The notes under the pieces: model-generated | What the model was told of the DNA's origin: nothing | The model's input: the letters and a program-made list of their open reading frames with translations, nothing else | Database searches by the model: none | Origin: Candidatus Sulfomarinibacteraceae bacterium | GTDB lineage: Bacteria; Acidobacteriota; Thermoanaerobaculia; Thermoanaerobaculales; Sulfomarinibacteraceae | Assembly (NCBI GenBank): GCA_963796455.1 | Contig: CAWCLO010000010.1 | Span: 128,001-192,000, forward strand | Length of the DNA: 64,000 bases | Direction of reading: 5' to 3' | Shown here: piece by piece, positions 9,515-54,400 of the stretch | How positions within the stretch are numbered: the stretch's first letter is position 1 | Layout of the letters: every line of letters starts with the position of its first letter | Program-made: the position numbers and the translations under genes

Positions 9515-9625
9515 AATAGGAATTAGGAATGAGGAATTACCGCCAACCCGGCCGTGGTCGCGTCGCAAGTGGTGGTCGCCGGAAATCCGAAATCCGAAAT
9601 CCGAAATCCGAAATTCGAAATCGAA
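9515..9625. repeat. Heptamer tandem repeats: AGGAATK x3 and AAATYCG x5
   Basis: aggaattaggaatgaggaatt and aaatccgaaatccgaaatccgaaatccgaaattcg between the RND gene and DUF2892. Confidence 0.85.
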
Positions 9626-9639
9626 CCCTGGAGGATATT

Positions 9640-24287: not shown

Positions 24288-25258
24288 CTCGATGCTCGAT
24301 GCTCGATGCTGGATCACTCTTGTCCAAGACAGAGTCTCGATAGCGTACAGGGACAGCGAGCAGGAGTCAGCGGCAGCGTTCAGTCACCAGCGTCAGCAAT
24401 CAGCGACCGGGGCGGCGACAGCGCCAGTGAAAAGCTCTCACTTCGTCGGGTTCAACAGTCGCCAGGTCATCGCACGGACTTGATCGAAGGCCTTCAGCGC
24501 ATCACGTGCGGCTGTCTGATTGATAGCCCCGCGGTGTGGGCGAGGAGCTTCAAGTAGCTGTCGACCTCTTTCGCCGAGGCGTATGCGATTCTCCAGTGGT
24601 TCCACCGGTCTCTACCGAGTCGGCCGTGACCTTCTGCCAGGTTCGCAGGGACTGAACTTGCCGACCGGATCACCTGATCGGCTATGGATTTCAGCGGAGC
24701 TGGAACCCTCATCACGAGCTTGATCGCAATTCCTGCTGCCTCGAGGGTTTTCGAGTGGGCAACGAGGTTGGTGTTCGTGGCGGCGTTGGACCTGGTCACC
24801 TCCGGGTCGTTCATGCCCATACCCACAAGCCGGTGAGGCGGCCGATGTCAAGGATGCCCTGCACCCTGCCTGTCCTTGACATCGGCTGCCCACCGGCTAC
24901 CCGTTTTGTTGAACGACCCGGAGGTGGCCATTTCGCCGACTGGACTGCTGATCGCTGCCGCTGATCACTGATCGCTGATCACTGATCGCTGTTCCCTGTT
25001 CGCTGTCCCTGTTCGCTGTTGCCTGTCGCTGCCGCTGCAATTCGGGCACGGACACGGACGCGGACTCGGGCACGGGACACCGCAAACTCGATATACCAAA
25101 AACCAACCTGTAAGCCTCGTTGTGTCAGGTGGGTGACTTCAAATGACGATTTGTTTTGGATCGCAGGGCTGCTGGATGCGCAAATTTCCGGAATCTTCCG
25201 TATGCTATGTACATGCCGGGTGGATGGGTGGATCCAGCATCTAGGATCCAGCATCGGG
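24288..25258 (-). mobile_element. Four-helix-bundle gene cassette with imperfect TIRs, complementary repeat arms and outer CTSGATG heptamers
   Basis: End motif GGATCACTCTTGTCCAAGACAGAGTCTCG at 24311-24339; opposite end (25080-25172) homologous to 41095-41200; CAGCGA-rich and TCGCTG-rich arms on either side of the ORF. Confidence 0.65.
24438..24814 (-). CDS. Four-helix-bundle protein (23S rRNA IVS-protein / Avd-like family); frameshift in G run near 24527-24530
   Basis: QVIRSASSVPANLAEGHGR and IAYASAKEV motifs; adding one G gives the fourth helix AINQTAARDALKAFDQVRAMTWRLLNPTK ending at TGA 24438. Start could also be 24820 or 24826. Confidence 0.85.
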
Positions 25259-28162: not shown

Positions 28163-28239
28163 ATCTTCCAAAAAGCACAACTCGTTGCCGGGCCCCATTA
28201 CCGCGAGCAGCCACCACATGCCGCCTGGACTACTGACCG

Positions 28240-28365
28240 CCGCCGCTGAACACTGATCGCTGTTCTCTGTCGCTGCCGCTGTTCACTGACTCCTGTTCGC
28301 TGACGCTGCCCCTGAAAGCTGCCCGAGACCCTGTCTTGAACAAGAGTGTTCCTCATTCCTCATTC
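28240..28365. repeat. Partial (one-end) copy of the four-helix-bundle cassette flank
   Basis: TCGCTG-rich arm, then CGAGACCCTGTCTTGAACAAGAGTGTTCC (reverse complement of the 24311 motif), then ttcctcattcctcattc heptamers. Confidence 0.7.
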
Positions 28366-29932: not shown

Positions 29933-29991
29933 AAGGGCGCAAGGCGGATAAGGGAGCTTGAGTATTCGAGAGAATGGGAGGGTGAGCGGGT

Positions 29992-30045
29992 CTCCCCATC
30001 TCCCCATCTCCCCTTCTCCCTTTCTCCCTTTCTCCCTTTCTTTCT
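29992..30045. repeat. Pyrimidine-rich octamer array (TCTCCCCA / TCTCCCTT)n
   Basis: Six units preceded by GAGCGGG-TCTCC, the same leader as the arrays at 41941 and 46206; purine-rich counterpart at 29923-29985. Confidence 0.8.
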
Positions 30046-41094: not shown

Positions 41095-41535
41095 GGATCA
41101 CTGCTGTCCAAAATAGATCGTCACCTGAAGTTTCCCACCTGACATCGCGTGGTTTACGGGTGGGTTTTTGGCATATCCGGTTCGCGGTTGCCCGTGTCCG
41201 TGCCCGCGTCCGCGTCCGAATTCCAGCGGCAGCGACAGTGTCCAGGGGCAGCGACAGGGATCAACGATCAGAGGCAGAGATCAGGGGCAGCGACGGCGTG
41301 ATCACCTCCGGGTCGTTCAATAGAAGGAACAGCCGTTGTCGTGTCGGCGTCTCGCCTGCACACCGTGCGGCCGAGACGGCCGCACCACCAAGGGCGGAGT
41401 CCCGAAGAAATAAGTGCTCTTCACTGTCCCGGCCGCTGATCGCTGACGCTGATGACTGAACACTGCCGCTGGCGACTGTTCGCTGCCGCTGCCCCTGAAC
41501 GCTATCCGAGACTCTGTCTTGGACAAGAGTGATGC
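41095..41535. mobile_element. Complete gene-less (MITE-like) derivative of the four-helix-bundle cassette
   Basis: Both ends homologous to the 24.3-25.2 kb cassette; imperfect TIRs GGATCACTGCTGTCCAAAATAGA and (rc) GCATCACTCTTGTCCAAGACAGA; ORF replaced by a REP-like doublet; outer CTSGATR heptamers. Confidence 0.75.
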
Positions 41536-41668
41536 TGGATGCTGGATCCAGACGTCGAGGTCTATTTCGAACCCGAGCCCGTTGCCGTTGCCGTTGCCGT
41601 TGCCGAAGGGGCAAGCGAAAAAGTTGAACCACCCCACTGATTTCGAACTCAAGCGAATGTCGCCTCCC

Positions 41669-41825
41669 GATGTCATCCTGAGCGGAGCGCCTTCGGCGCG
41701 AAGTCGAAGGACCCGTTCGACTCGCGCTGCTCGCTCAGGGCAGGTTCTGCGGTTTGATGTCTTTTCGTTTCATCTCATAGATCCTTCGACTACGCCCCTG
41801 TGGGGGCTTCGCTCAGGATGACATC
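41669..41825. repeat. Palindromic REP/MITE-like element GATGTCATCCTGAGC...GCTCAGGATGACATC, copy 1
   Basis: Terminal inverted repeat plus inner gtcgaagga/tccttcgac pair; second copy at 46003. Confidence 0.85.
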
Positions 41826-41940
41826 TTGAACGACAGTGCCGATCCGGATCCCGATCCCGTTCCCGAATGCGAAAACGAGCCGCCACATGGAGGGGGGCAG
41901 ATGGGCTGAAAAGCGAGTGCCCATGTGATAAGGGTCGGGT

Positions 41941-42122
41941 CTCCTCTGCTCCTCTCTTGCTCCTCGTCTGCTCCTCTGCTCCTTTCCTCTGCTCCTCTGC
42001 TCCTCTGCTCCTCTGCTCCTCTGCTCCTCTGCTCCTCTGCTCCTCTGCTCCTCTGCTCCTCTGCTCCTCTGCTCCTCTGCTCCTCTGCTCCTCTGCTCCT
42101 CTGCTCCTCTGCTCCTCTGCTC
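41941..42122. repeat. Octamer microsatellite (CTCCTCTG)n, roughly 22 units
   Basis: Seen directly; preceded by GTGATAAGGGTCGGGT. Confidence 0.95.
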
Positions 42123-42165
42123 TCCCGGAAGGCGTTACAATCCCAAACCGAAACAGGGAGGAACG

Positions 42166-43005
42166 ATGCCCGAAGCGATCAACGGTGAGGTCACGATTCA
42201 CTATCTCGACGAGGGCACCGGCGAAACAGTGCTTCTGATCCACGGTCACACCCAGGACCGACGGATCTTTGATCCGATGATGGGATCACTCATCGGTGAG
42301 GGGCTGAGGGTCATCCGACCCGACCTCAGAGGCCACGGCAAAAGCACCCGCCCTGACTCCGGCTATCACCACTCCCATCACGCCTCCGATATGTTGGCGG
42401 TTCTCGACGCGGCCGACGTCCATCGCGCTTCGGTCCTTGGTTATTCGGTAGGCGGCGCGATTGCGCTCGAGATGGCCATCACCCATCCCGATCGGGTCGC
42501 CGGTCTCGTGCTCGCCTCAACGGTGATGCCGGATCGCCCATTCGAGCCCGAATTCATGGACTGCCTTCGGCAAGTCGCCCGGGTGGCGCGCACCGAGGGA
42601 ATCGCCGCCGCCATGGAAGGAGCCTGGGGTGAGTGTCCGCTCTTCACGCATTCCTTCACCAAAGCGGAGGTCCGCGAAGCAGCGGAGGCGATCACCCGGG
42701 ACTTTCCTGGAGCTGAGTATCTCGCGACCGCGCGGGATCACGTCGAACGTTCGTGGACGGTTCCCGATAGGCTCTCCGAAATTGACGTCCCCACCATCGT
42801 GTTGGCGGGCGACAGCGAGACACCGGGGTTCATCAAATTTGCCGAAGAAGCTGCGGCCGGCATCCCCGGTTCCCGGCTCGAACTCCTGGTCGACTGCGGT
42901 CACCTCCTGCCTCTCGAGGCACCCGACCGGCTCGCCCAGGCGATTCTCGATGCCACGCAAACCGACGATCCCAACGCGACACAACCAATTTCTCAACGGC
43001 TTTAA
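42166..43005 (+). CDS. Alpha/beta-fold hydrolase
   Basis: LIHGH, DLRGHGKS, GYSVGG nucleophile elbow, CGHLLPLE; GGAGG RBS. Confidence 0.92.
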   Translation: MPEAINGEVTIHYLDEGTGETVLLIHGHTQDRRIFDPMMGSLIGEGLRVIRPDLRGHGKSTRPDSGYHHSHHASDMLAVLDAADVHRASVLGYSVGGAIALEMAITHPDRVAGLVLASTVMPDRPFEPEFMDCLRQVARVARTEGIAAAMEGAWGECPLFTHSFTKAEVREAAEAITRDFPGAEYLATARDHVERSWTVPDRLSEIDVPTIVLAGDSETPGFIKFAEEAAAGIPGSRLELLVDCGHLLPLEAPDRLAQAILDATQTDDPNATQPISQRL

Positions 43006-45672: not shown

Positions 45673-46002
45673 AACCTCCTCGTGCGGTTCGCCACCGCAT
45701 GGTTTTCTGCTGAGGCTTCGAGGATATCACCGCTCGATGCTCGATACTCGATACTCGATCCCGATCCCGATCACGAGCCCGTTGCCGTTACCGCTACCGA
45801 CAGGGAGAAATGGGGAAAGGGGGAAAGGGAGAAGCAGCCCCCACCTGGCAGAGGGGCATGGGGGCAGAGGACCGCTCGGCTTCCTCGCTATCGCTATCGG
45901 AATCGCTATCGCTATCGTTGGGCTGCTGTAGATACCGATCCTGAAAGGGAGAAAGGGGAACCAACCGGCACTGGTTTCGCCCACGTACCCATGTCGCTAC
46001 CC

Positions 46003-46124
46003 GATGTCATCCTGAGCGAAGCGCCTTTGGCGCGAAGTCGAAGGATCTGCGGACTGAGGATGTTCCATTCATCTCATAGATCCTTCGACTCCGCCCCTGT
46101 GGGGGCTCCGCTCAGGATGACATC
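46003..46124. repeat. Palindromic REP/MITE-like element, copy 2
   Basis: Near-identical arms and flanks (atgtcgc...cccgatgtcatcctgagc; catctcatagatccttcgac; catcttgaa) to 41669-41825. Confidence 0.85.
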
Positions 46125-46205
46125 TTGAAGGACCGTTCCTTTTCCGTTCCTATTGAGACGAAAGGAAAACCCATCGCGGGTCGATAAGCGTGATAAGGAG
46201 CGGGT

Positions 46206-46370
46206 CTCCTCTGCTCCTCTGCCCCTCTGCTCCTCTGCCCCTCTGCCCCTCTGCCCCTCTGCCCCTCTGCCCCTCTGCTCTGCCCCTCTGCCCCTCTGCC
46301 CCTCTGCCCCTCTGCCCCTCTGCTGCCCTTCTGCCCCTCTGCCCCTCTGCTCCTCTGCTCCTCTGCTCCC
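46206..46370. repeat. Octamer microsatellite (CYCCTCTG)n, roughly 20 units
   Basis: Seen directly; preceded by GTGATAAGGAGCGGGT. Confidence 0.95.
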
Positions 46371-46447
46371 TTTCTCGGTCATCCGTGTGGATCTCCATCT
46401 CCAATCCAGATAGGATGTAGGGTAGTGGATGACCCAGGAAGACCCCG

Positions 46448-47683: not shown

Positions 47684-50600
47684 CCAACCCAGGGTATCCG
47701 CTGATTCGAAGCTGTCCGCGAAGAGCACCGGGGTGGGCGGCAGATCCCGCATCGAGCCGTAGACCCCATCAGTCCCGGAATCCTGGCCCTGACTCGACCA
47801 GACGACCCAAAAGTTTCCGGCTTCGGAACATGCGACATCCACCTGGTATTGGGCCCCAGCGTAGTAGTTGTTGAACGGAAGCTCGTCCGATGCAAAGGAA
47901 CCGTCATCATCGAGCAAGCGCCCGAAGACTCCCGCTCCCGAACTATCCTGGCCATAGCTCTCCCAGACCACGGCCACGTGTCCGTTTGCTTCGCCGTCTA
48001 CCGCCGGGTTGCGTTGGTTGCCGTCGGTGAAATCGTTGATCCGAAATTCACTGCCTGCCGCAACGCCGTCGCCATCGAACCAGCGACCGCGCACGCTGTA
48101 ACCCGATCCATCCTGACCGGTGGCGTCCTGCCACGCGACCAGGAATGCGCCGCCGCCCACCACCGCGGCCACCGGCCTCGACTGGTCGCCTGTGATGACG
48201 GTGTTGACCAGGAACTCTCCGGCAATGGGCACACCCGCGCCGGTCCAGCCGGCGGCCGACCACAGATTCTGAGATTCCGTCGTCCTGCCCCCAACTCTCC
48301 CACACCACCACGAAACCTCCGTCGGGCGAAGCTCCAACGCTGGGATTGTCCTGGTTTCCGGTGGTGGTGGTGTTGACCGCGAACTCATCACCCACCGGCG
48401 TGCCGTCGAGGCCGAAGACCCGTGCAAATACGCCAGGACCCCCACCGGAGTCATTGTCCTGCCAGACAATCATCACCTGGTTGCCACCGTCGATCGCGAT
48501 CTGTGGAACTGTTTGAGTATTCGAACCGGAGGACCCGACCGCGTATTCGCCGCCAAGGGCAGCGCCGGCGGCATCATAGCGCCGTGCCAGGATCTCGGTT
48601 CCACCTTCAGTGGCGGCCTGCCAAACGACGGTGAAGGAACCGTCAGACGCAACCGCAACTCCAGGGTTTTGTTGATCCTCGTCAGTCGACTGGTTGATCT
48701 GAAACTCCTCTCCAACCGGATCGCCATTGCCGTCAAATCGTTGTCCGAATACGCCCCAGCCCCACCCGTCCTGGTTCCAGCTTTCCCACACCACCGTGGA
48801 GTTCCCAGTGGCATTGACACTCACCGCCGGCTTGTCTTGGATGTTCGGTATTGAGGAGTTGATTCGGTTTTCAAGAGCCTCGTCATCGGTGAGGGCGACG
48901 ACTGACGTGCCCGGGGCACCGATCTCGATGTCGCCGACCGGATTGGAGAGCGTCACCTGGAAGTTCTCGCCTCCCTCGACATCGTTGTCGTCGATGAGAG
49001 CAATCGTGATCGTCTTGTCGTCGCCGTTTCCGGCCGCCCAATCGAGGGTCCCGGAGCCAGCCACGTAGTCCGATCCCGATGAGGCGGTACCATCCGCCGT
49101 CGCCCATTCGATCGATGCCGCGCCGTCGGTGTTTCCGGTGCGGGTGACGATGAGATCCACGCTGGCGTCGGTTTCGGCCACTCCGTAGGACGGCGGACTC
49201 GAATTGAAGTCTCGGCCCATCTTCGTCGATGATCGTCACGGTGAAGACCGAAGGCGAACCGAGTACCGTGCCTGCGGTCGGATTGCTGAGCGTGACCTGG
49301 AAGTTCTCGTCAGTTTCTCGGACCTCATCATCGGTAAGGGAAACCGAGATGGTCTTGGGGACCTGGTCGCCCGGCCCCCATTGCAGCGTTCCGGAAGTCG
49401 ATGTGTAGTCCGATCCAGCGGTCGCGGTTCCACCCTCGGTCGCGTAGCTCACAGATACCGTCCCAAGCGCCGGTCCGGAGCGGGAAACATAGGCGGAGAC
49501 GGTTCCGCCGTCCTCTCCAACCTCCGTGGAACCGGAGCCGAAGCGCAGCACATCGACGTCGTCGTCGACGATGGTCAGCAGCGCTCGATTGAGGACACTG
49601 AGGGTCGTCGGGCCCGTTGGGGTGTGGAGTTTGAGAATCAGTTGTTCCTGTCCTTCGATGTCACCGTCGTTCTGGATCGGGACCTGGACAGTTTTGTCCG
49701 TGGTGTCGCCATCGTTCCAGGTGACGGTCTGATTGATTTCGGTGTAATCAGAACCGGCAACCGCGCTGCCATCCTCGGAAGTGATCGTCACTCCCACAGC
49801 CCCTTCACCGTTCCCGTTCCGACGGAGGGTCACCGTCGCCGCGCCGGCCTGCTCGTCGACCGAGTAGGAGTTCGCGGAAAATTGCAGAGACGTGGACTGC
49901 TCGTAGGGTTCCAGGAGTTTCAATGCCGTCAGCACTCCGTCCATGCTCGCGAGGTAGAGCCGGCCCTCGCTCCACGCCAGATCTCCTCGTACGGCGGTCT
50001 CATCCACCGCGTCGGGTGGATAATCGTAGGACCAGACACTCTCGTGGGTGGTGAGATCGATGGCGTGGATCGCAGATCCCTCGTCGCTGTGGTTCCGCCA
50101 ATCAACGTCGACGACGGTAACGATCACATGGGAGTCGGTGACGATCATGGTGCCTTCAGCCTCGAAAGGGGCCTGTGGCGACCACGACCACAACAGAGTG
50201 CCGTCGTCCTGATCCCGGGCCTCGACGTTGCCGTGGTTGATGGCATAGATGACGCCCTTGGCAACCGACACCTGGCCGGCCAAGGCGTTGCGCCGGTTCC
50301 CACCGAAACCATCGTTCACAAAGTATCCAACCTCTTCGTTCACGAAATCGAAGGAAAGGAGTCGACCGTTGTGAATCACGAATGCGTCATTTCGACCACC
50401 CAGCGCCGGCGCGAGATCCATCGACTGGAGGTGCCATTCCGTTGTCGTGTCGACGATGGTGACCTCCTTGGTTCCATTTGCGCAAGATATGGCATACATG
50501 GTCCCGCCGACATAGTTGTAGGCGCGGATTCCATCCACCGCCGGGGTCCACAGGGGGTACTCCTTCAATCTGGCGTACCATCGGAATGGGGGGTCGTCGT

Positions 50601-51192
50601 AGAAATCGAAAGCGACAAGACCGATGTACCTGCCGCCGCCAATGTACGCGACATTGTCGACGATGGTCGGCGCATAGTAGGCGTAGTACCAGGCTTCGTG
50701 GACACCGGTGTCGATGACGGAGCCACTCTCGGCATTGAAGGTGTAAAGAGCGCTTTGTTCAAAGTTGACGACCTGGAGATATACCTTGCCGTTGTCATAG
50801 GCAGGAGGATTGACGGATTTGACGCTGCCGAAATCCTTGGACCACAGGATGGATCCATCCTCAGCGTCGAGGGTGTAATAGTCATCCTCTCCGACTGTGT
50901 AGTCCACCTGTTCGGTGGAGACATAAACCCGGCCGTCGACGGCCGTCACCGGAAAGAGGCCGTCATTGTGGTCGGGAGCCAAAACCACTTCCCAGTCGAG
51001 AGCAAAATCATTCGGGTCGAAAGACACTGGGACGTAACCCGTATGGGCGGGATTCCCCTGGAACATGGGCCAGCTCACCTGGGCATCGAGCCCCCCCGGA
51101 ACAAACATCACCACCAAGGTCGAGGCGGTGACCAGAGTGAGCCCTATCGAAAACCGAACTCCTGAGAAGTGCTTTCCACCAGTTGGCCGCAT
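47666..51192 (-). CDS. Large exported protein: PQQ-like beta-propeller, three Calx-beta domains, repeat domain; split by frameshifts near 49195 and 48240-48310
   Basis: Consecutive ORFs 48883..51207, 48048..49220 and 47666..48469 continue the same domain series (WPMFQGNPAHTG; ATAGSDYT..GTLQW; EFQIN..DQQNP); C-terminus LFADSFES. Confidence 0.8.
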
Positions 51193-51350
51193 GAGACGGT
51201 CCTCCACCTTTCTATTTTAAATGAGAGCAATTCCGTAACTGGCTGGTTTGAGTCGATTTATGAGACATTGTCTCGGGTTTCGTGTCAAACATTTGCAAAT
51301 TTGACAAAATCAAGACTCCATATGGGTATATTTGCCACAAGGTATCCGAG
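51193..51350 (-). promoter_or_regulatory. AT-rich upstream region duplicated at 56163-56322, with palindromic operator-like sites
   Basis: TGAGACAttGTCTC (51261) and TGTCAAA..TTTGCAAATTTGACAAA (51283-51308), conserved in both copies. Confidence 0.65.
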
Positions 51351-51443
51351 CCCCCGACGATCTCCGCTCTGCGCGCGACGGCTCTTCTGCGCTGACGCCC
51401 TCGTGCCGAAACGCCGGTCAAACCGTAACGATCAGTATCACGT

Positions 51444-54400
51444 TCAGGGACCTGAAGCCGTCCAGACCGTGACGTCACCCGACTCAAAACCGTCCCGAAG
51501 GATGATCGGACCCGCATGGAGTTGCTTGACGGAGCCAAAGACACCCTCGGTCGCCTGGTCCTGTGCCGCGCTCGCCCAGACCGACAGAAACGCCCCCGAG
51601 GCCGAACAGGCAACGCTCGGCCGGTACTGGGCGCCCTCGGTATAGGAGTTGAACGGGATCTCTCCCGAGGCCATGGTCCCGTCGTCTTCGAGCAGACGTC
51701 CGTAGATCCCGGAACCCGAACCGTCCTGGCCATAGCTCTCCCACAGGACCGCGGCACGTCCGTAGTAGCTCCGCACCTGCTGTGGGATTACGTTGGTTGC
51801 CATCGGTGAATGAATTGACGGTGAATTCGGAGCCCGTTGCTGCCCCGGAGCCGTTAAACCATCGGCCGCGCACGCTGTAACCCGAACCGTCCTGCCCGGT
51901 GGCGTCCTCCCAGACGACCAGGAAACCACCCCCACCGACCACCGCCACCGATGGTTTTTTCTGATCACCGACGATCACACTGTTGACGATGAGCTCTCCG
52001 CCGAGAGGCGCGCCTTGACTCGAATATCTGCGCACGATGACCGATTCAGAGTAACCGTCGTCCTGGCTGTAGCTCTCCCACACCACCACGAAGCCCCCGT
52101 CGGGCGAGCCATCGACATGGGGTGTGTCCTGGCTCTGCGGAGTCGTCGTGTTGACCGCGAATTCGTCACCCTCCGGTATTCCACCGGTATCGATCAAACG
52201 CGCGAAGACACCGGAACCCGAAACGTCGCTGCCCTGCCAAACGACCATGAATCGGCTGCTGGAATCGACCGCGATCTTTGGCGCGGACTGGCTTCCAGAT
52301 AGTGAGGAGTTGACCACGAACTCATCGGTCAAGGGCAAACCGGCAGCATCGAAGCGGCGGGCCATGATCTCGGTCCCGCCGGTGGCGGCAGCCTGCCACA
52401 CCACCACAAAGGACCCATCGAAGGCCACCGCAACCGAAGCCTTTTGTTGATCTTCATCGGTGGTCTGGTTGACCTGGAACTCGCCGCCCTGAAACGCGCC
52501 GATCCGTCGATTCGACGGCCATAGACTCCCAGACCCCAACCGTCCTGACCCTGACTCTCCCACACCACGACGCCGTGACCATTTGAGTTCTTCGCCGAAC
52601 GGGGAAAGGTCTGAGTACTCGCGGAGGTGGTGTTGATCTGGGTTTCCTGCCCTTCGTCGTCGTTGATTTTCAGGTGGCGCCGGATGGATCGCCCATCGAC
52701 ACGTTTCCGGTGGCGTTTGAAAGGCTGAGCAGCACGGTTTCGTTGCCCTCGACAAGGGAGTCGTCGAGAAGTGTAATGGTCACGATCTTATTCTCGCTTT
52801 CGCCATCCCCCCAGCTGAGGGTCTCCGATCTCTCCTCATAGTCTTCGCCCGGGGTGGCGCTACCCATAGCCGTGTTGTAATCGACCGACACCACGCCAGT
52901 GTCCCCAATCACCCGCATGACGGTAATTTCTGCGACTCCTTGATCTTCAACTTCCGAGAATTCGGCGTTGGAGTATCGGATCTGCGATGCGTCGTTGTCC
53001 GAAATGCTGAGCACCGCCGCATCTGGCGCCGTCAACGCCGCCGGCCCGGTGGGGTTGGAGAGCGTGATGTTGACGGTTTCGGTGATCTCCACATCCTGAT
53101 CATCGGTGATGGTGATCGAAAAGCTCTTGGGCTGAGTGTCTCCATCGCCCCAATCGAGGGTCCCCACCATGGTGTTGTAGTCCTGGCCTGCAACGGCTGT
53201 CCCGTTGCTGGTTTGGTAGTCCACCGACACCGCGCCCACCGAGGAGAGGGTGCGGTTGACGGGTGATAGTCGCGACGCCGTCCCGTCATTGACCATATAG
53301 CTCATGCTTGACAATGAAAGGTTGGCAATATCGTCGTCGGCGATGGTAACGGTGGCGGAGCTCGGGCTGCCGAGAATGGCAGCCGGCCCGGGGTTGGAGA
53401 GCTCGACGGCGAACGACTCGAAACCCTCGGTGAGATCGTCGTCCGCTATCGGAATTACAATGCTCTTCGGCGCCAGTGTCGCCGGTGGTCCAGCTTCGAG
53501 AGTGACATTCGACACGGAGGTGAAGTCAAGGCCACCAACGGCAGTATCGTCCACCGTCGAATATTCAACCAACACCGGAAAATCGGATCCACCTGAGCGG
53601 GTCACCGTCAGCTGTACCTGGGCGGCATCCTCATCGACACTGACGAAGGCTGAAGCAAAACGGAGATACGAGACATCGTCGTCGATGATGGTCACAGTTG
53701 CCGCTGAAGGGCTTCCGATGATGCCCCCGGATACACCGGAGAGAACGAAGCTGAACTCCTCGTCACCCTCCATGTTCTAGTCGTTGGTAATTGGAATCTC
53801 GACAATTTGATCTAAACTGAAACCGCTGCTCCAACTGAGGACATCGGCCACGCCGACATAGTCAACTCCCTCAGCGGACTACCGCCTGAAGTTGAGGATC
53901 TTCAACCATTTCTCCTTCGCTCGATCCAGTCCGCTGAACCGTCATTGACAAAGTCCCTGCATCTTCATCCACGGTTGCGGCGGAAACCGCCAGCCGCGTA
54001 ATTGGAGGATCTCGACCCCACCGAACCTGAATGCACTGTGGTCCGATCCAACCAGCATTCCGACACGCTCGTAACCGACGATCGGCCAGCTTATAGAGAC
54101 CATTTTCGATCCCAACCGTCTCGCCAAGCGGTTGGCTCTGCCGAGAATCATTCCTTCCTGATCAAAGTCAAATCCACGCAAAACATGATCGCTGCCGAAG
54201 ACGATGATCGGATCGTTATTGAGATCAAAATAGCTGGATACGCTTTCGATCTCCTCGTCACTAACCGTAAATCTGTCGACTACCTTCCACGCTCCAGCGC
54301 CCTGGTCGATGATGACCAGCTCTCCCTGTCGTTTCCAACCACAATCTGCCGAGGACCAGTGCCGCCGAGATTGACGACATCCACCGCTGTTACCTCACCG

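What the first reader, a model, noticed from the sequence alone, without database searches (positions are those of the whole stretch)
24288..25258. Four-helix-bundle gene in a TIR-bounded, self-complementary cassette with gene-less copies: candidate new mobile or RNA-excised element
Seen: the small four-helix-bundle gene after tolB sits between a CAGCGA-rich 5' arm and a complementary TCGCTG-rich 3' arm. Outside these are imperfect terminal inverted repeats (GGATCACTnnTGTCCAAnAnAGA) and inverted CTSGATG heptamer runs. The same ends recur at 41095-41535 (both ends), 18978-19445 and 28240-28365 (one end). The first two of these keep the upstream motif CACCTCCGGGTCGTTCA and the last codons (CCCGAmGAArTrAGwGCTnTTCACTG), with a REP-like doublet in place of the ORF. 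Established: this protein family occurs in RNase III-excised 23S rRNA intervening sequences and is related to the DGR accessory protein Avd; it is not a known transposase. Inference: an autonomous/non-autonomous element pair whose transcript folds into one long stem around the ORF, and which spreads between genes by an unknown mechanism.
Basis: partly seen in the sequence, partly recalled or inferred. Interest (0 to 1): 0.85.

Follow-up and report, generated by a model that had tools for sequence, protein, structure and literature searches.

The report
IS4-ended cassette carrying IVS-protein gene
This is one of about 65 copies of a transposase-less cassette with the ends and 9-base target duplications of an IS4-type transposon, likely moved by a borrowed transposase, that carries a small, strongly conserved gene of unknown job otherwise known from ribosomal-RNA inserts.

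Summary
The element is real, but how it spreads is not a mystery. It spans 24315-25168. Its ends match full IS4-family (IS4Sa-type) insertion sequences, and it is flanked by 9-bp target duplications (21 of 59 end pairs exact; shuffled mean 2.5). The outer heptamer runs are the host target, not part of the element. The genome holds 65 near-full gene copies (58 intact; this copy is frameshifted) and 70 gene-less REP-bearing cores. Both forms show duplications equally often, so both are non-autonomous, not an autonomous/non-autonomous pair. The tolB site is empty in 8 of 8 relatives with the same gene order. The cognate transposase was not found here but occurs in one congener.

What stays unusual: the same gene core was captured separately by ISL3 ends in other species; insertions favour one heptamer family; copies recombine; the passenger is under purifying selection even in a young burst; and an antisense lock covers its start. 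RNA excision is unsupported. This scan reported the same cassette before, on other pieces of this genome and in relatives. Verdict: new variant of a known kind (mobile insertion cassette).

The parts
24315..25168 (-). Whole cassette (854 bp), non-autonomous, IS4-type ends
24306..24314 (.). 9-bp target duplication, tolB side (plus strand ATGCTGGAT), inside a host heptamer run starting near 24288
25169..25177 (.). 9-bp target duplication, far side (1 mismatch)
24315..24333 (+). Terminal inverted repeat matching the left (transposase 5') end of the full IS4-type element
24345..24430 (-). 3' heptamer arm (TCGCTG-rich on the gene strand); limits approximate
24438..24814 (-). PF05635/TIGR02436 four-helix-bundle gene; broken in this copy (2-nt insertion near codon 95, codon 8 AGG); intact in 58 of 65 copies
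24829..24897 (-). Near-invariant palindrome upstream of the gene, with compensatory changes between species
24910..24926 (-). Antisense lock CACCTCCGGGTCGTTCA, complementary to codons 1-6 and to the GGAGG in front of Met8
24935..25037 (-). 5' heptamer arm (CAGCGA-rich on the gene strand); limits approximate
25043..25078 (-). Run of CCCGTG-type hexamers; limits approximate
25079..25168 (-). About 90 bp derived from the right (transposase 3') end of the IS4-type element, with a degenerate TIR at 25150-25168
   Evidence: alignment score beyond the TIR 45 vs 25.4 +/- 4.6, 0 of 500 shuffles
25230..25255 (.). Other arm of the host inverted heptamer pair; outside the cassette
   Evidence: L011, L019 have the pair without the cassette
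41099..41531 (+). Gene-less copy with both ends, a REP doublet in place of hairpin and gene, and a 9-bp duplication (1 mismatch)
18982..19445 (-). Gene-less REP-bearing copy, one end only
28220..28348 (+). Fragment: arm sequence plus one end

Best explanation
It is a mobile insertion cassette: the two ends of an IS4-family insertion sequence enclose a four-helix-bundle passenger gene and no transposase, and it was likely copied around the genome by an IS4 transposase working in trans. Shown: sharp ends shared with full IS4-type elements, 9-bp target duplications, lineage-specific insertion sites, and a strong preference for AT-N5-AT sites in GATGCWG-type heptamer arrays. The enclosed core (heptamer arm, antisense lock, palindrome, gene, complementary arm) is older than the IS4 shell: congeners carry it between ISL3 ends or with neither shell. 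One derivative lost hairpin and gene to a REP doublet and was then copied as a MITE. Inferred: the helper transposase is lost or unassembled in this genome; copies exchange short tracts by gene conversion; the lock pairs over the ribosome-binding site and start codons and keeps the gene silent in read-through transcripts. Least certain (about 35%): the protein is an Avd-like nucleic-acid-binding pentamer acting on its own hairpinned cassette, which favours copying or retention of intact copies and would explain the purifying selection.
For: The end pattern hits full 1.37-1.44 kb elements in several phyla; 5 of 7 examined have 9-bp duplications. Their transposase is DUF4372 + DDE_Tnp_1 with the YREK motif. 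Ends CA------T, size and repeat length fit IS4Sa (PMC2266710, Table 1). Here 21 of 59 end pairs have an exact 9-bp duplication (shuffled pairing mean 2.5, max 7; one-unit-shifted array controls 9 and 9 of 59; no signal at 3-8 or 10-15 bp); in G006 17 of 34. About 90 bp beyond one TIR align to the IS right end (0 of 500 shuffles). A full cognate IS occurs in congener G017 between heptamer runs. Empty sites: 8 of 8 relatives with tolB adjacent; of 9 G006 insertions mapped to G000, 6 are empty. Target preference: 22 of 28 AT-N5-AT duplications lie in GATGCWG arrays vs 390 of 2998 intergenic sites. ISL3 shell: 8-bp duplications exact in 5 of 13 (G008) and 3 of 8 (G014), same ends as a full ISL3 in G017. 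Selection: pN/pS 0.21 over 65 copies; 0.23-0.25 in the G006 burst. The lock decays in gene-less copies (23 of 69 vs 3 of 63 with 2 or more mismatches, p = 4e-5).
Against: No cognate transposase was found in this genome (tblastn E<=1; 90.5% complete) or in G006; only 1 of 25 genus genomes has it. The full IS in G017 has no target duplication. 22 of 59 pairs differ at 2 or more of the 9 positions. Only 33 of 65 gene copies keep both ends. Cores in G004 and G018 are multi-copy largely without either shell, which trans-transposition of this cassette does not explain. Transposition, expression and protein function were not observed. The gene is dispensable in cis, which weakens the idea that the protein helps copying.
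Confidence: 0.85

Rival explanations
1. The core (arms, hairpin, gene) is a selfish unit with its own protein-driven way of spreading, for example strand invasion or gene conversion at heptamer arrays; the IS ends are only a later second vehicle. This can hold alongside the best explanation.
For: Multi-copy cores in genomes with almost no IS4 ends (G004: 25 gene matches, 1 end match; G018: 8 and 0), mostly without ISL3 ends in the loci viewed. Purifying selection inside a young burst. Short-tract recombination among copies. Two independent captures by IS ends.
Against: The protein has no known catalytic family. Gene-less copies are as numerous as gene-bearing ones (70 vs 65) and as often duplicated. 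Shell-less cores may be decayed cassettes or have shells I did not recognise. The selection signal weakens when variants seen in other copies are removed (7 nonsynonymous, 3 synonymous; p = 0.06).
Confidence: 0.3
2. The gene is a neutral hitchhiker. The deficit of amino-acid changes is imported by gene conversion from diverged alleles that were selected elsewhere or earlier.
For: Linkage decays with distance (0 of 1000 permutations). 28 of 46 G006 burst variants also occur in divergent copies of that genome. G000 singleton ratio 0.82-0.9, not different from neutral. Gene-less forms thrive.
Against: Burst singletons absent from the divergent copies still give a ratio of 0.23 (9 of 633 vs 8 of 131; p = 0.004). 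Non-coding singleton density (0.17-0.28 per site) matches synonymous (0.22), not nonsynonymous (0.05). The G000 singleton ratio is inflated because 141 of 253 synonymous slots are already shared; among free slots it is about 0.4 (my arithmetic). 58 of 65 frames are intact.
Confidence: 0.25
3. It is an mRNA-level intervening sequence: the arms pair, RNase III cuts the stem and releases the gene-bearing RNA, and this is what is selected.
For: Stable predicted fold (z = -6.2 and -8.5). Arms pair far better than shuffled (-113.6 vs -71.7 kcal/mol). Coxiella's IVS carries the same protein family with heptamers and is cut by RNase III (PMC4990558, passages). One lineage (G017) shifts the repeat unit on both arms.
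Against: No sense bias (34 of 65 with the upstream neighbour; 10 sense vs 19 antisense between co-directional genes). Same-copy arms pair no better than cross-copy arms (p = 0.88). G.U 32 vs A.C 56 in the inner palindrome. No copy lies in the window's rRNA operon. The one RNA run was uninformative.
Confidence: 0.12
4. Copies spread by homologous recombination between flanking heptamer arrays or by the genome's RAYT (HUH) transposases, and the duplications are an illusion of period-7 repeats.
For: Targets are period-7 arrays, which give a background match (9 of 59 in shifted controls). Six RAYT-type genes are present and the doublet in gene-less copies matches the REPs flanking one of them.
Against: Exact 9-mers match at 21 of 59, more than twice the array control, and include rare and non-array 9-mers. 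The cassette lies in both orientations of the array. The ends are those of DDE elements that make 9-bp duplications in non-repetitive DNA. Gene-bearing copies have no such REP.
Confidence: 0.05

Closest known systems
Mobile insertion cassettes (MIC231 of Bacillus cereus s.l., IS231 subgroup of IS4; PMC6199540 passages, PMC2266710 section 6)
   Same: Two IS4-family inverted repeats, no transposase, one passenger gene, size within about 0.7-3 kb, a retained stretch of IS end, target duplication, movement in trans (shown for MIC231, inferred here).
   Different: IS4Sa-type rather than IS231 ends; about 65 copies per genome; passenger of unknown function, read against the lost transposase and wrapped in its own heptamer arms and hairpins; array-specific targeting; parallel ISL3-ended version in congeners.
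IS4 family, subgroup IS4Sa (PMC2266710)
   Same: Ends CA------T, 9-bp duplication (range 8-10); helper elements of 1.37-1.44 kb with DUF4372 + DDE_Tnp_1 and YREK.
   Different: The cassette itself encodes no transposase. The full elements from other phyla that I examined sit in non-repetitive targets.
ORF-bearing 23S rRNA intervening sequences (Coxiella burnetii IVS with S23p; PMC4990558 passages)
   Same: Same protein family (PF05635), heptamer repeats beside the gene, long terminal stem, restricted translation.
   Different: Here intergenic, in either orientation, with IS ends and duplications. The gene is under purifying selection rather than reductive evolution. RNase III excision not shown.
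Avd of diversity-generating retroelements (PMC10053308 passages)
   Same: Homologous fold by that paper; my sequence search hit the family structures 2GSC (E 0.0017, 5 chains) and 2RLD.
   Different: No reverse transcriptase found in this genome; none of the loci viewed showed a DGR, though I did not search for template repeats.
MITEs and REP doublets (REPINs) beside RAYT genes
   Same: The gene-less form is a MITE-sized element holding a REP doublet that matches REPs flanking a RAYT-type gene of this genome.
   Different: It moves as a unit with IS4 ends and 9-bp duplications, not as a free doublet.
Intergenic heptamer repeats of Xanthomonas and Nostoc (PMC4692102 passages)
   Same: Abundant intergenic 7-mers, often as inverted pairs.
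   Different: That paper found them generally not associated with mobile elements; here they are preferred IS targets.

Membership tests
Mobile insertion cassette (MIC) | Two IS-derived inverted repeats | tested here: met
Mobile insertion cassette (MIC) | No transposase; one or more passenger genes; about 0.7-3 kb | tested here: met
   820-900 bp, only a PF05635 gene; definition from PMC6199540
Mobile insertion cassette (MIC) | Target duplication of the cognate IS length | tested here: met
   9 bp, 21 of 59 exact and 37 of 59 within one mismatch
Mobile insertion cassette (MIC) | Cognate transposase available in trans in the genome | tested here: inconclusive
   not found in G000 (90.5% complete) or G006; present in G017, 1 of 25 genus genomes
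Mobile insertion cassette (MIC) | Trans-transposition demonstrated | not testable with these tools
   needs a bench assay
IS4 family, IS4Sa subgroup (helper) | DDE transposase with YREK motif | tested here: met
IS4 family, IS4Sa subgroup (helper) | Ends CA------T, 1150-1750 bp, duplication 8-10 bp | tested here: met
   against PMC2266710 Table 1
IS4 family, IS4Sa subgroup (helper) | Transposase clusters with reference IS4Sa members | not tested
   no reference set on hand; subgroup rests on ends, size and duplication length
Autonomous insertion sequence | Encodes its own transposase | tested here: not met
   only PF05635/TIGR02436; gene-less copies move equally
23S rRNA intervening sequence | Located in an rRNA gene | tested here: not met
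   intergenic; none of 65 copies in the window's rRNA operon
23S rRNA intervening sequence | Encodes a PF05635 protein inside a terminal stem | tested here: met
23S rRNA intervening sequence | Excised from RNA by RNase III | not testable with these tools
   one RNA run, contigs only, 3 records
Diversity-generating retroelement | Reverse transcriptase in the genome or locus | tested here: not met
   PF00078: 0 matches; incomplete genome
REPIN/RAYT system | Unit bounded by REP doublet and moved without target duplication of IS4 type | tested here: not met
   doublet is internal cargo; unit has IS4 ends and 9-bp duplications

The most novel reading that the evidence does not exclude
The heptamer-armed, hairpin-locked PF05635 gene is a selfish module in its own right. 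Its Avd-like protein binds the module's hairpins or heptamer DNA and raises the copying or survival of intact copies, so unrelated IS ends (IS4 here, ISL3 in congeners) that capture it are amplified with it. This would give the protein family a function, make heptamer arrays its landing sites, and show how such genes reached rRNA as intervening sequences.
Probability: 0.25. Interest if true: 0.8.

Novelty: new variant of a known kind. Interest (0 to 1): 0.55.

Why it matters
The PF05635 family has no known job, and the idea that rRNA intervening sequences are transposition remnants is old and unproven (PMC4990558, discussion passage). Here the same gene rides in a cassette with defined ends, a named helper transposase and a defined target, at dozens of copies per genome and under selection. 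That makes three questions directly testable: whether the protein changes transposition or retention, why IS elements in this genus choose heptamer arrays, and how a passenger stays intact when it is not needed in cis. The way it moves is ordinary; the passenger biology is not.

Tried and rejected
A 2-bp AT duplication or crossover core (IS110-like or serine-recombinase-like): AT flanks 48 of 62 pairs but does not beat shuffled pairing (45 vs 41.6); it is the edge of a 9-bp duplication. Helper search in the own genome: reverse transcriptase 0, IS630-type 0, ISL3 0, IS110 two short fragments, one rve gene (ends not examined) and one DDE_Tnp_1 gene without these ends. The three long end pairs (1.9-2.4 kb) were chance pairings of separate copies. 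Rfam: nothing at the element. My first dN/dS run was one base out of frame and was redone; the 'intact' count was a script slip, corrected. The shared-allele test with other species (56 of 60 sites) is uninformative because of saturation. The early reading 'neutral after insertion' from G000 singletons was withdrawn as biased. Reads: four runs, contigs only; no joint skipping the cassette and no circle junction, which proves nothing; one contig bridges the far junction (X2 record 18). A recalled term for such repeats was not found in PMC5581495 or by search. A recalled parallel, ribosome-site occlusion in IS10/IS50, was not retrieved and stays recalled. The structure prediction had not finished, so there is no model or fold search. 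Large protein-homologue searches and complex prediction were not run.

Full report
Observation. The region reads as described, with corrections. The gene on the minus strand after tolB belongs to TIGR02436/PF05635 (scored on an intact genome copy). The window's own copy is broken: a 2-nt insertion near codon 95 and AGG at codon 8. One public contig spans the frameshift without a gap, though that run may be the source sample. The element has sharp ends at 24315 and 25168; the sequence out to 25258 is host spacer and the other arm of a host heptamer pair.

Copy number. In the 5.02-Mb genome, BLASTN of the gene gave 109 pieces, 65 of them near full length at 85-92% identity. Of the 65, 58 are intact, 6 have indels and 1 has a stop; 38 keep the far end, 52 the near end and 33 both. 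Genome-wide there are 90 and 143 ends and 62 pairs. There are 70 gene-less cores in which a REP doublet replaces hairpin and gene; the 60 printed show the same junctions. That doublet matches REPs flanking a RAYT-type gene of this genome. The element was found in 18 of 18 other genus genomes by DNA. Gene copies form one clade per genome for G000, G006, G008, G014 and G017, weakly supported for G006 (0.45), and not for G004 or G018. Records with the same ends are titled Ca. Sulfomarinibacteraceae, Acidobacteriota, so the host is likely of that group (inference).

Insertion polymorphism. The downstream gene was found in 16 of 18 relatives; 8 loci also held tolB, with spacers of 89-220 bp (one masked) and no cassette. 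The closest relative keeps the inverted heptamer pair without the insert. Of 14 distinct G006 insertions, 9 mapped by both flanks to G000: 6 sites are empty, 1 holds the gene-less form, 1 holds a copy in the opposite orientation and 1 is unresolved.

How it moves. A scan of genome records for the end pattern stopped at 100 stretches, 80 of them fetched. Many are ends of full 1.37-1.44 kb elements in unrelated phyla. Of 7 examined with both ends, 5 have a 9-bp duplication. Their protein is DUF4372 + DDE_Tnp_1. End signature, size and duplication length fit IS4Sa (PMC2266710, section 6 and passages read). In this genome 21 of 59 pairs under 1 kb have an exact 9-bp duplication and 37 are within one mismatch; shuffled pairing gives 2.5 and 9.2; controls shifted by one array unit give 9 and 9; lengths 3-8 and 10-15 give no signal. 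G006 gives 17 of 34 exact. About 90 bp inside one end align to the right end of the full IS (0 of 500 shuffles), so the gene reads against the lost transposase. The helper was not found in G000 or G006; 1 of 25 genus genomes (G017) has it, with YREK and the same ends, between heptamer runs but without a duplication. Gene-less and gene-bearing pairs show duplications equally (9 of 22, 8 of 25). This matches the definition of a mobile insertion cassette (PMC6199540, passages).

Target. Of 37 duplications within one mismatch, 28 are AT-N5-AT and 22 of these lie in GATGCWG-type arrays. The background is 390 of 2998 intergenic AT-N5-AT sites; the 324 AAATCCG-type sites are almost unused. Intergenic DNA here rests on my own rough gene calls. 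Gene-less MITEs with these ends in other records also sit in heptamer runs, so the preference does not need the passenger in cis.

Shell and core are separable. End counts and gene matches are decoupled across 25 genomes: G000 223/71, G006 87/42, G034 84/3, G004 1/25, G014 0/12. In G008, G014 and G017 the same core lies between different ends that match a full ISL3 element in G017. There the duplication is 8 bp, exact in 5 of 13 (G008) and 3 of 8 (G014), in AACGTT-type arrays. In the G004 and G018 loci viewed, most cores had neither shell (output partly cut).

Selection and recombination. Against the consensus, pN/pS is 0.21 overall and 0.07 in residues 21-86; shared variants give 0.14. G000 singletons give 0.82-0.9, but 141 of 253 synonymous slots are already shared, so this is inflated (about 0.4 among free slots). 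In G006, 29 of 39 fetched copies lie within 4% of their consensus; singletons give 0.23 (p = 3e-5) and shared variants 0.25. Removing variants seen in the 10 divergent copies leaves 0.23 (p = 0.004); also removing those seen in G000 leaves 0.24 but p = 0.06. Linkage falls from r2 0.26 within 5 nt to 0.025 beyond 60 nt (0 of 1000 permutations), so copies exchange short tracts and imported variation cannot be excluded.

Structure of the leader. The upstream motif pairs with positions 3-18 of the frame in at least 99 of 111 copies. It covers Met1 and the GGAGG in front of Met8; Met8 is invariant in 20 of 20 aligned proteins and variation begins right after it, so Met8 is a likely start (inference). 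The motif decays once the gene is gone (23 of 69 vs 3 of 63, p = 4e-5). The inner palindrome shows compensatory swaps, but G.U pairs (32) do not exceed A.C (56), so RNA versus DNA is undecided. Arms of the same copy pair no better than arms of different copies (p = 0.88); only G017 shifts the unit on both arms. Orientation is random relative to the upstream neighbour (34 of 65). A parallel with IS10/IS50 shielding of transposase mRNA is recalled, not retrieved.

Comparison. It works like, and by the sequence tests is, a mobile insertion cassette on IS4Sa-type ends; trans-activity is untested. It resembles ORF-bearing rRNA intervening sequences in cargo and fold (PMC4990558, abstract and passages) but is not one. 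Homology to Avd rests on PMC10053308 (passages) and hits to 2GSC and 2RLD; no reverse transcriptase was found. Nine searches of the held library gave no paper describing this gene inside IS ends; most subscription papers are outside that library, and no supplements were read. PMC5581495, PMC6542083, PMC8700078 and PMC4692102 were seen as passages or term counts only.

Earlier scan notes. One search listed 104 notes on heptamer-armed cassettes and pointed to PMC4990558. Searches, made after my IS4 and ISL3 results, show the same cassette already reported on other pieces of this genome and in relatives. These are not independent support.

Verdict. Real feature; new variant of a known kind. Movement by an IS4 transposase in trans: 0.85. 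The job of the passenger is open, and that is where the interest lies: 0.55.

Noticed in passing
L011, L017-L019, L021, L024, L026 (tolB spacer in relatives): The same spacer holds a different short-repeat family in most species (7-mer, 8-mer or 6-mer), often as an inverted pair, so the repeat pairs themselves turn over.
   Followed up: partly
window 25216-25255; L163, L170, L178, L189: Heptamer arms are often joined to GGGTGGGYGG / CCRCCCACCC linkers, as if arms come as linker-plus-repeat modules; unexplained.
   Followed up: no
window 20555-20598 and 20787-20830: Exact 44-nt duplicate of the 3' part of the tRNA at 20791-20863, 232 bp away; looks like an integration scar.
   Followed up: no
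window 41635-41851 and 45969-46150: Two copies of a second palindromic doublet family (GTCATCCTGAGCG ... CGCTCAGGATGAC), also seen as cargo between the IS4 ends at G000 C4:114698.
   Followed up: no
window 41872-42186, 46150-46384, 29976-30035, 9569-9627, 21673-21796: Long 8-mer and 7-mer tandem arrays; genome-wide 262 7-mer, 152 8-mer and 110 6-mer perfect triple runs against 6 5-mers and 5 9-mers.
   Followed up: partly
window 47910-52564: Two paralogous repeat-rich genes about 3.78 kb apart at roughly 70% identity with internal 159-nt repeats.
   Followed up: no
G000 C1:2061-2763, C4:284936-285953, C4:791330-792256 and others: Another dispersed 600-1000 bp family at 88-94% identity bounded by GCAAAGAC/CACAGAG-type repeats, with no long coding frame.
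   Followed up: no
G000 C6:37094, C7:279899, C7:285081; C1:453966, C1:748395, C1:750137: Three copies of a 1.7-1.8 kb element whose protein looks IS91-like (label recalled), and three GxxExxY genes, one in two pieces.
   Followed up: no
G000 partial gene copies: Several partial copies break at the same places (query 101-103 and 190), suggesting a second deletion derivative that was propagated.
   Followed up: no
L163 (G017): A full ISL3 element and an ISL3-ended four-helix-bundle core lie side by side in one heptamer array, a possible capture intermediate.
   Followed up: partly
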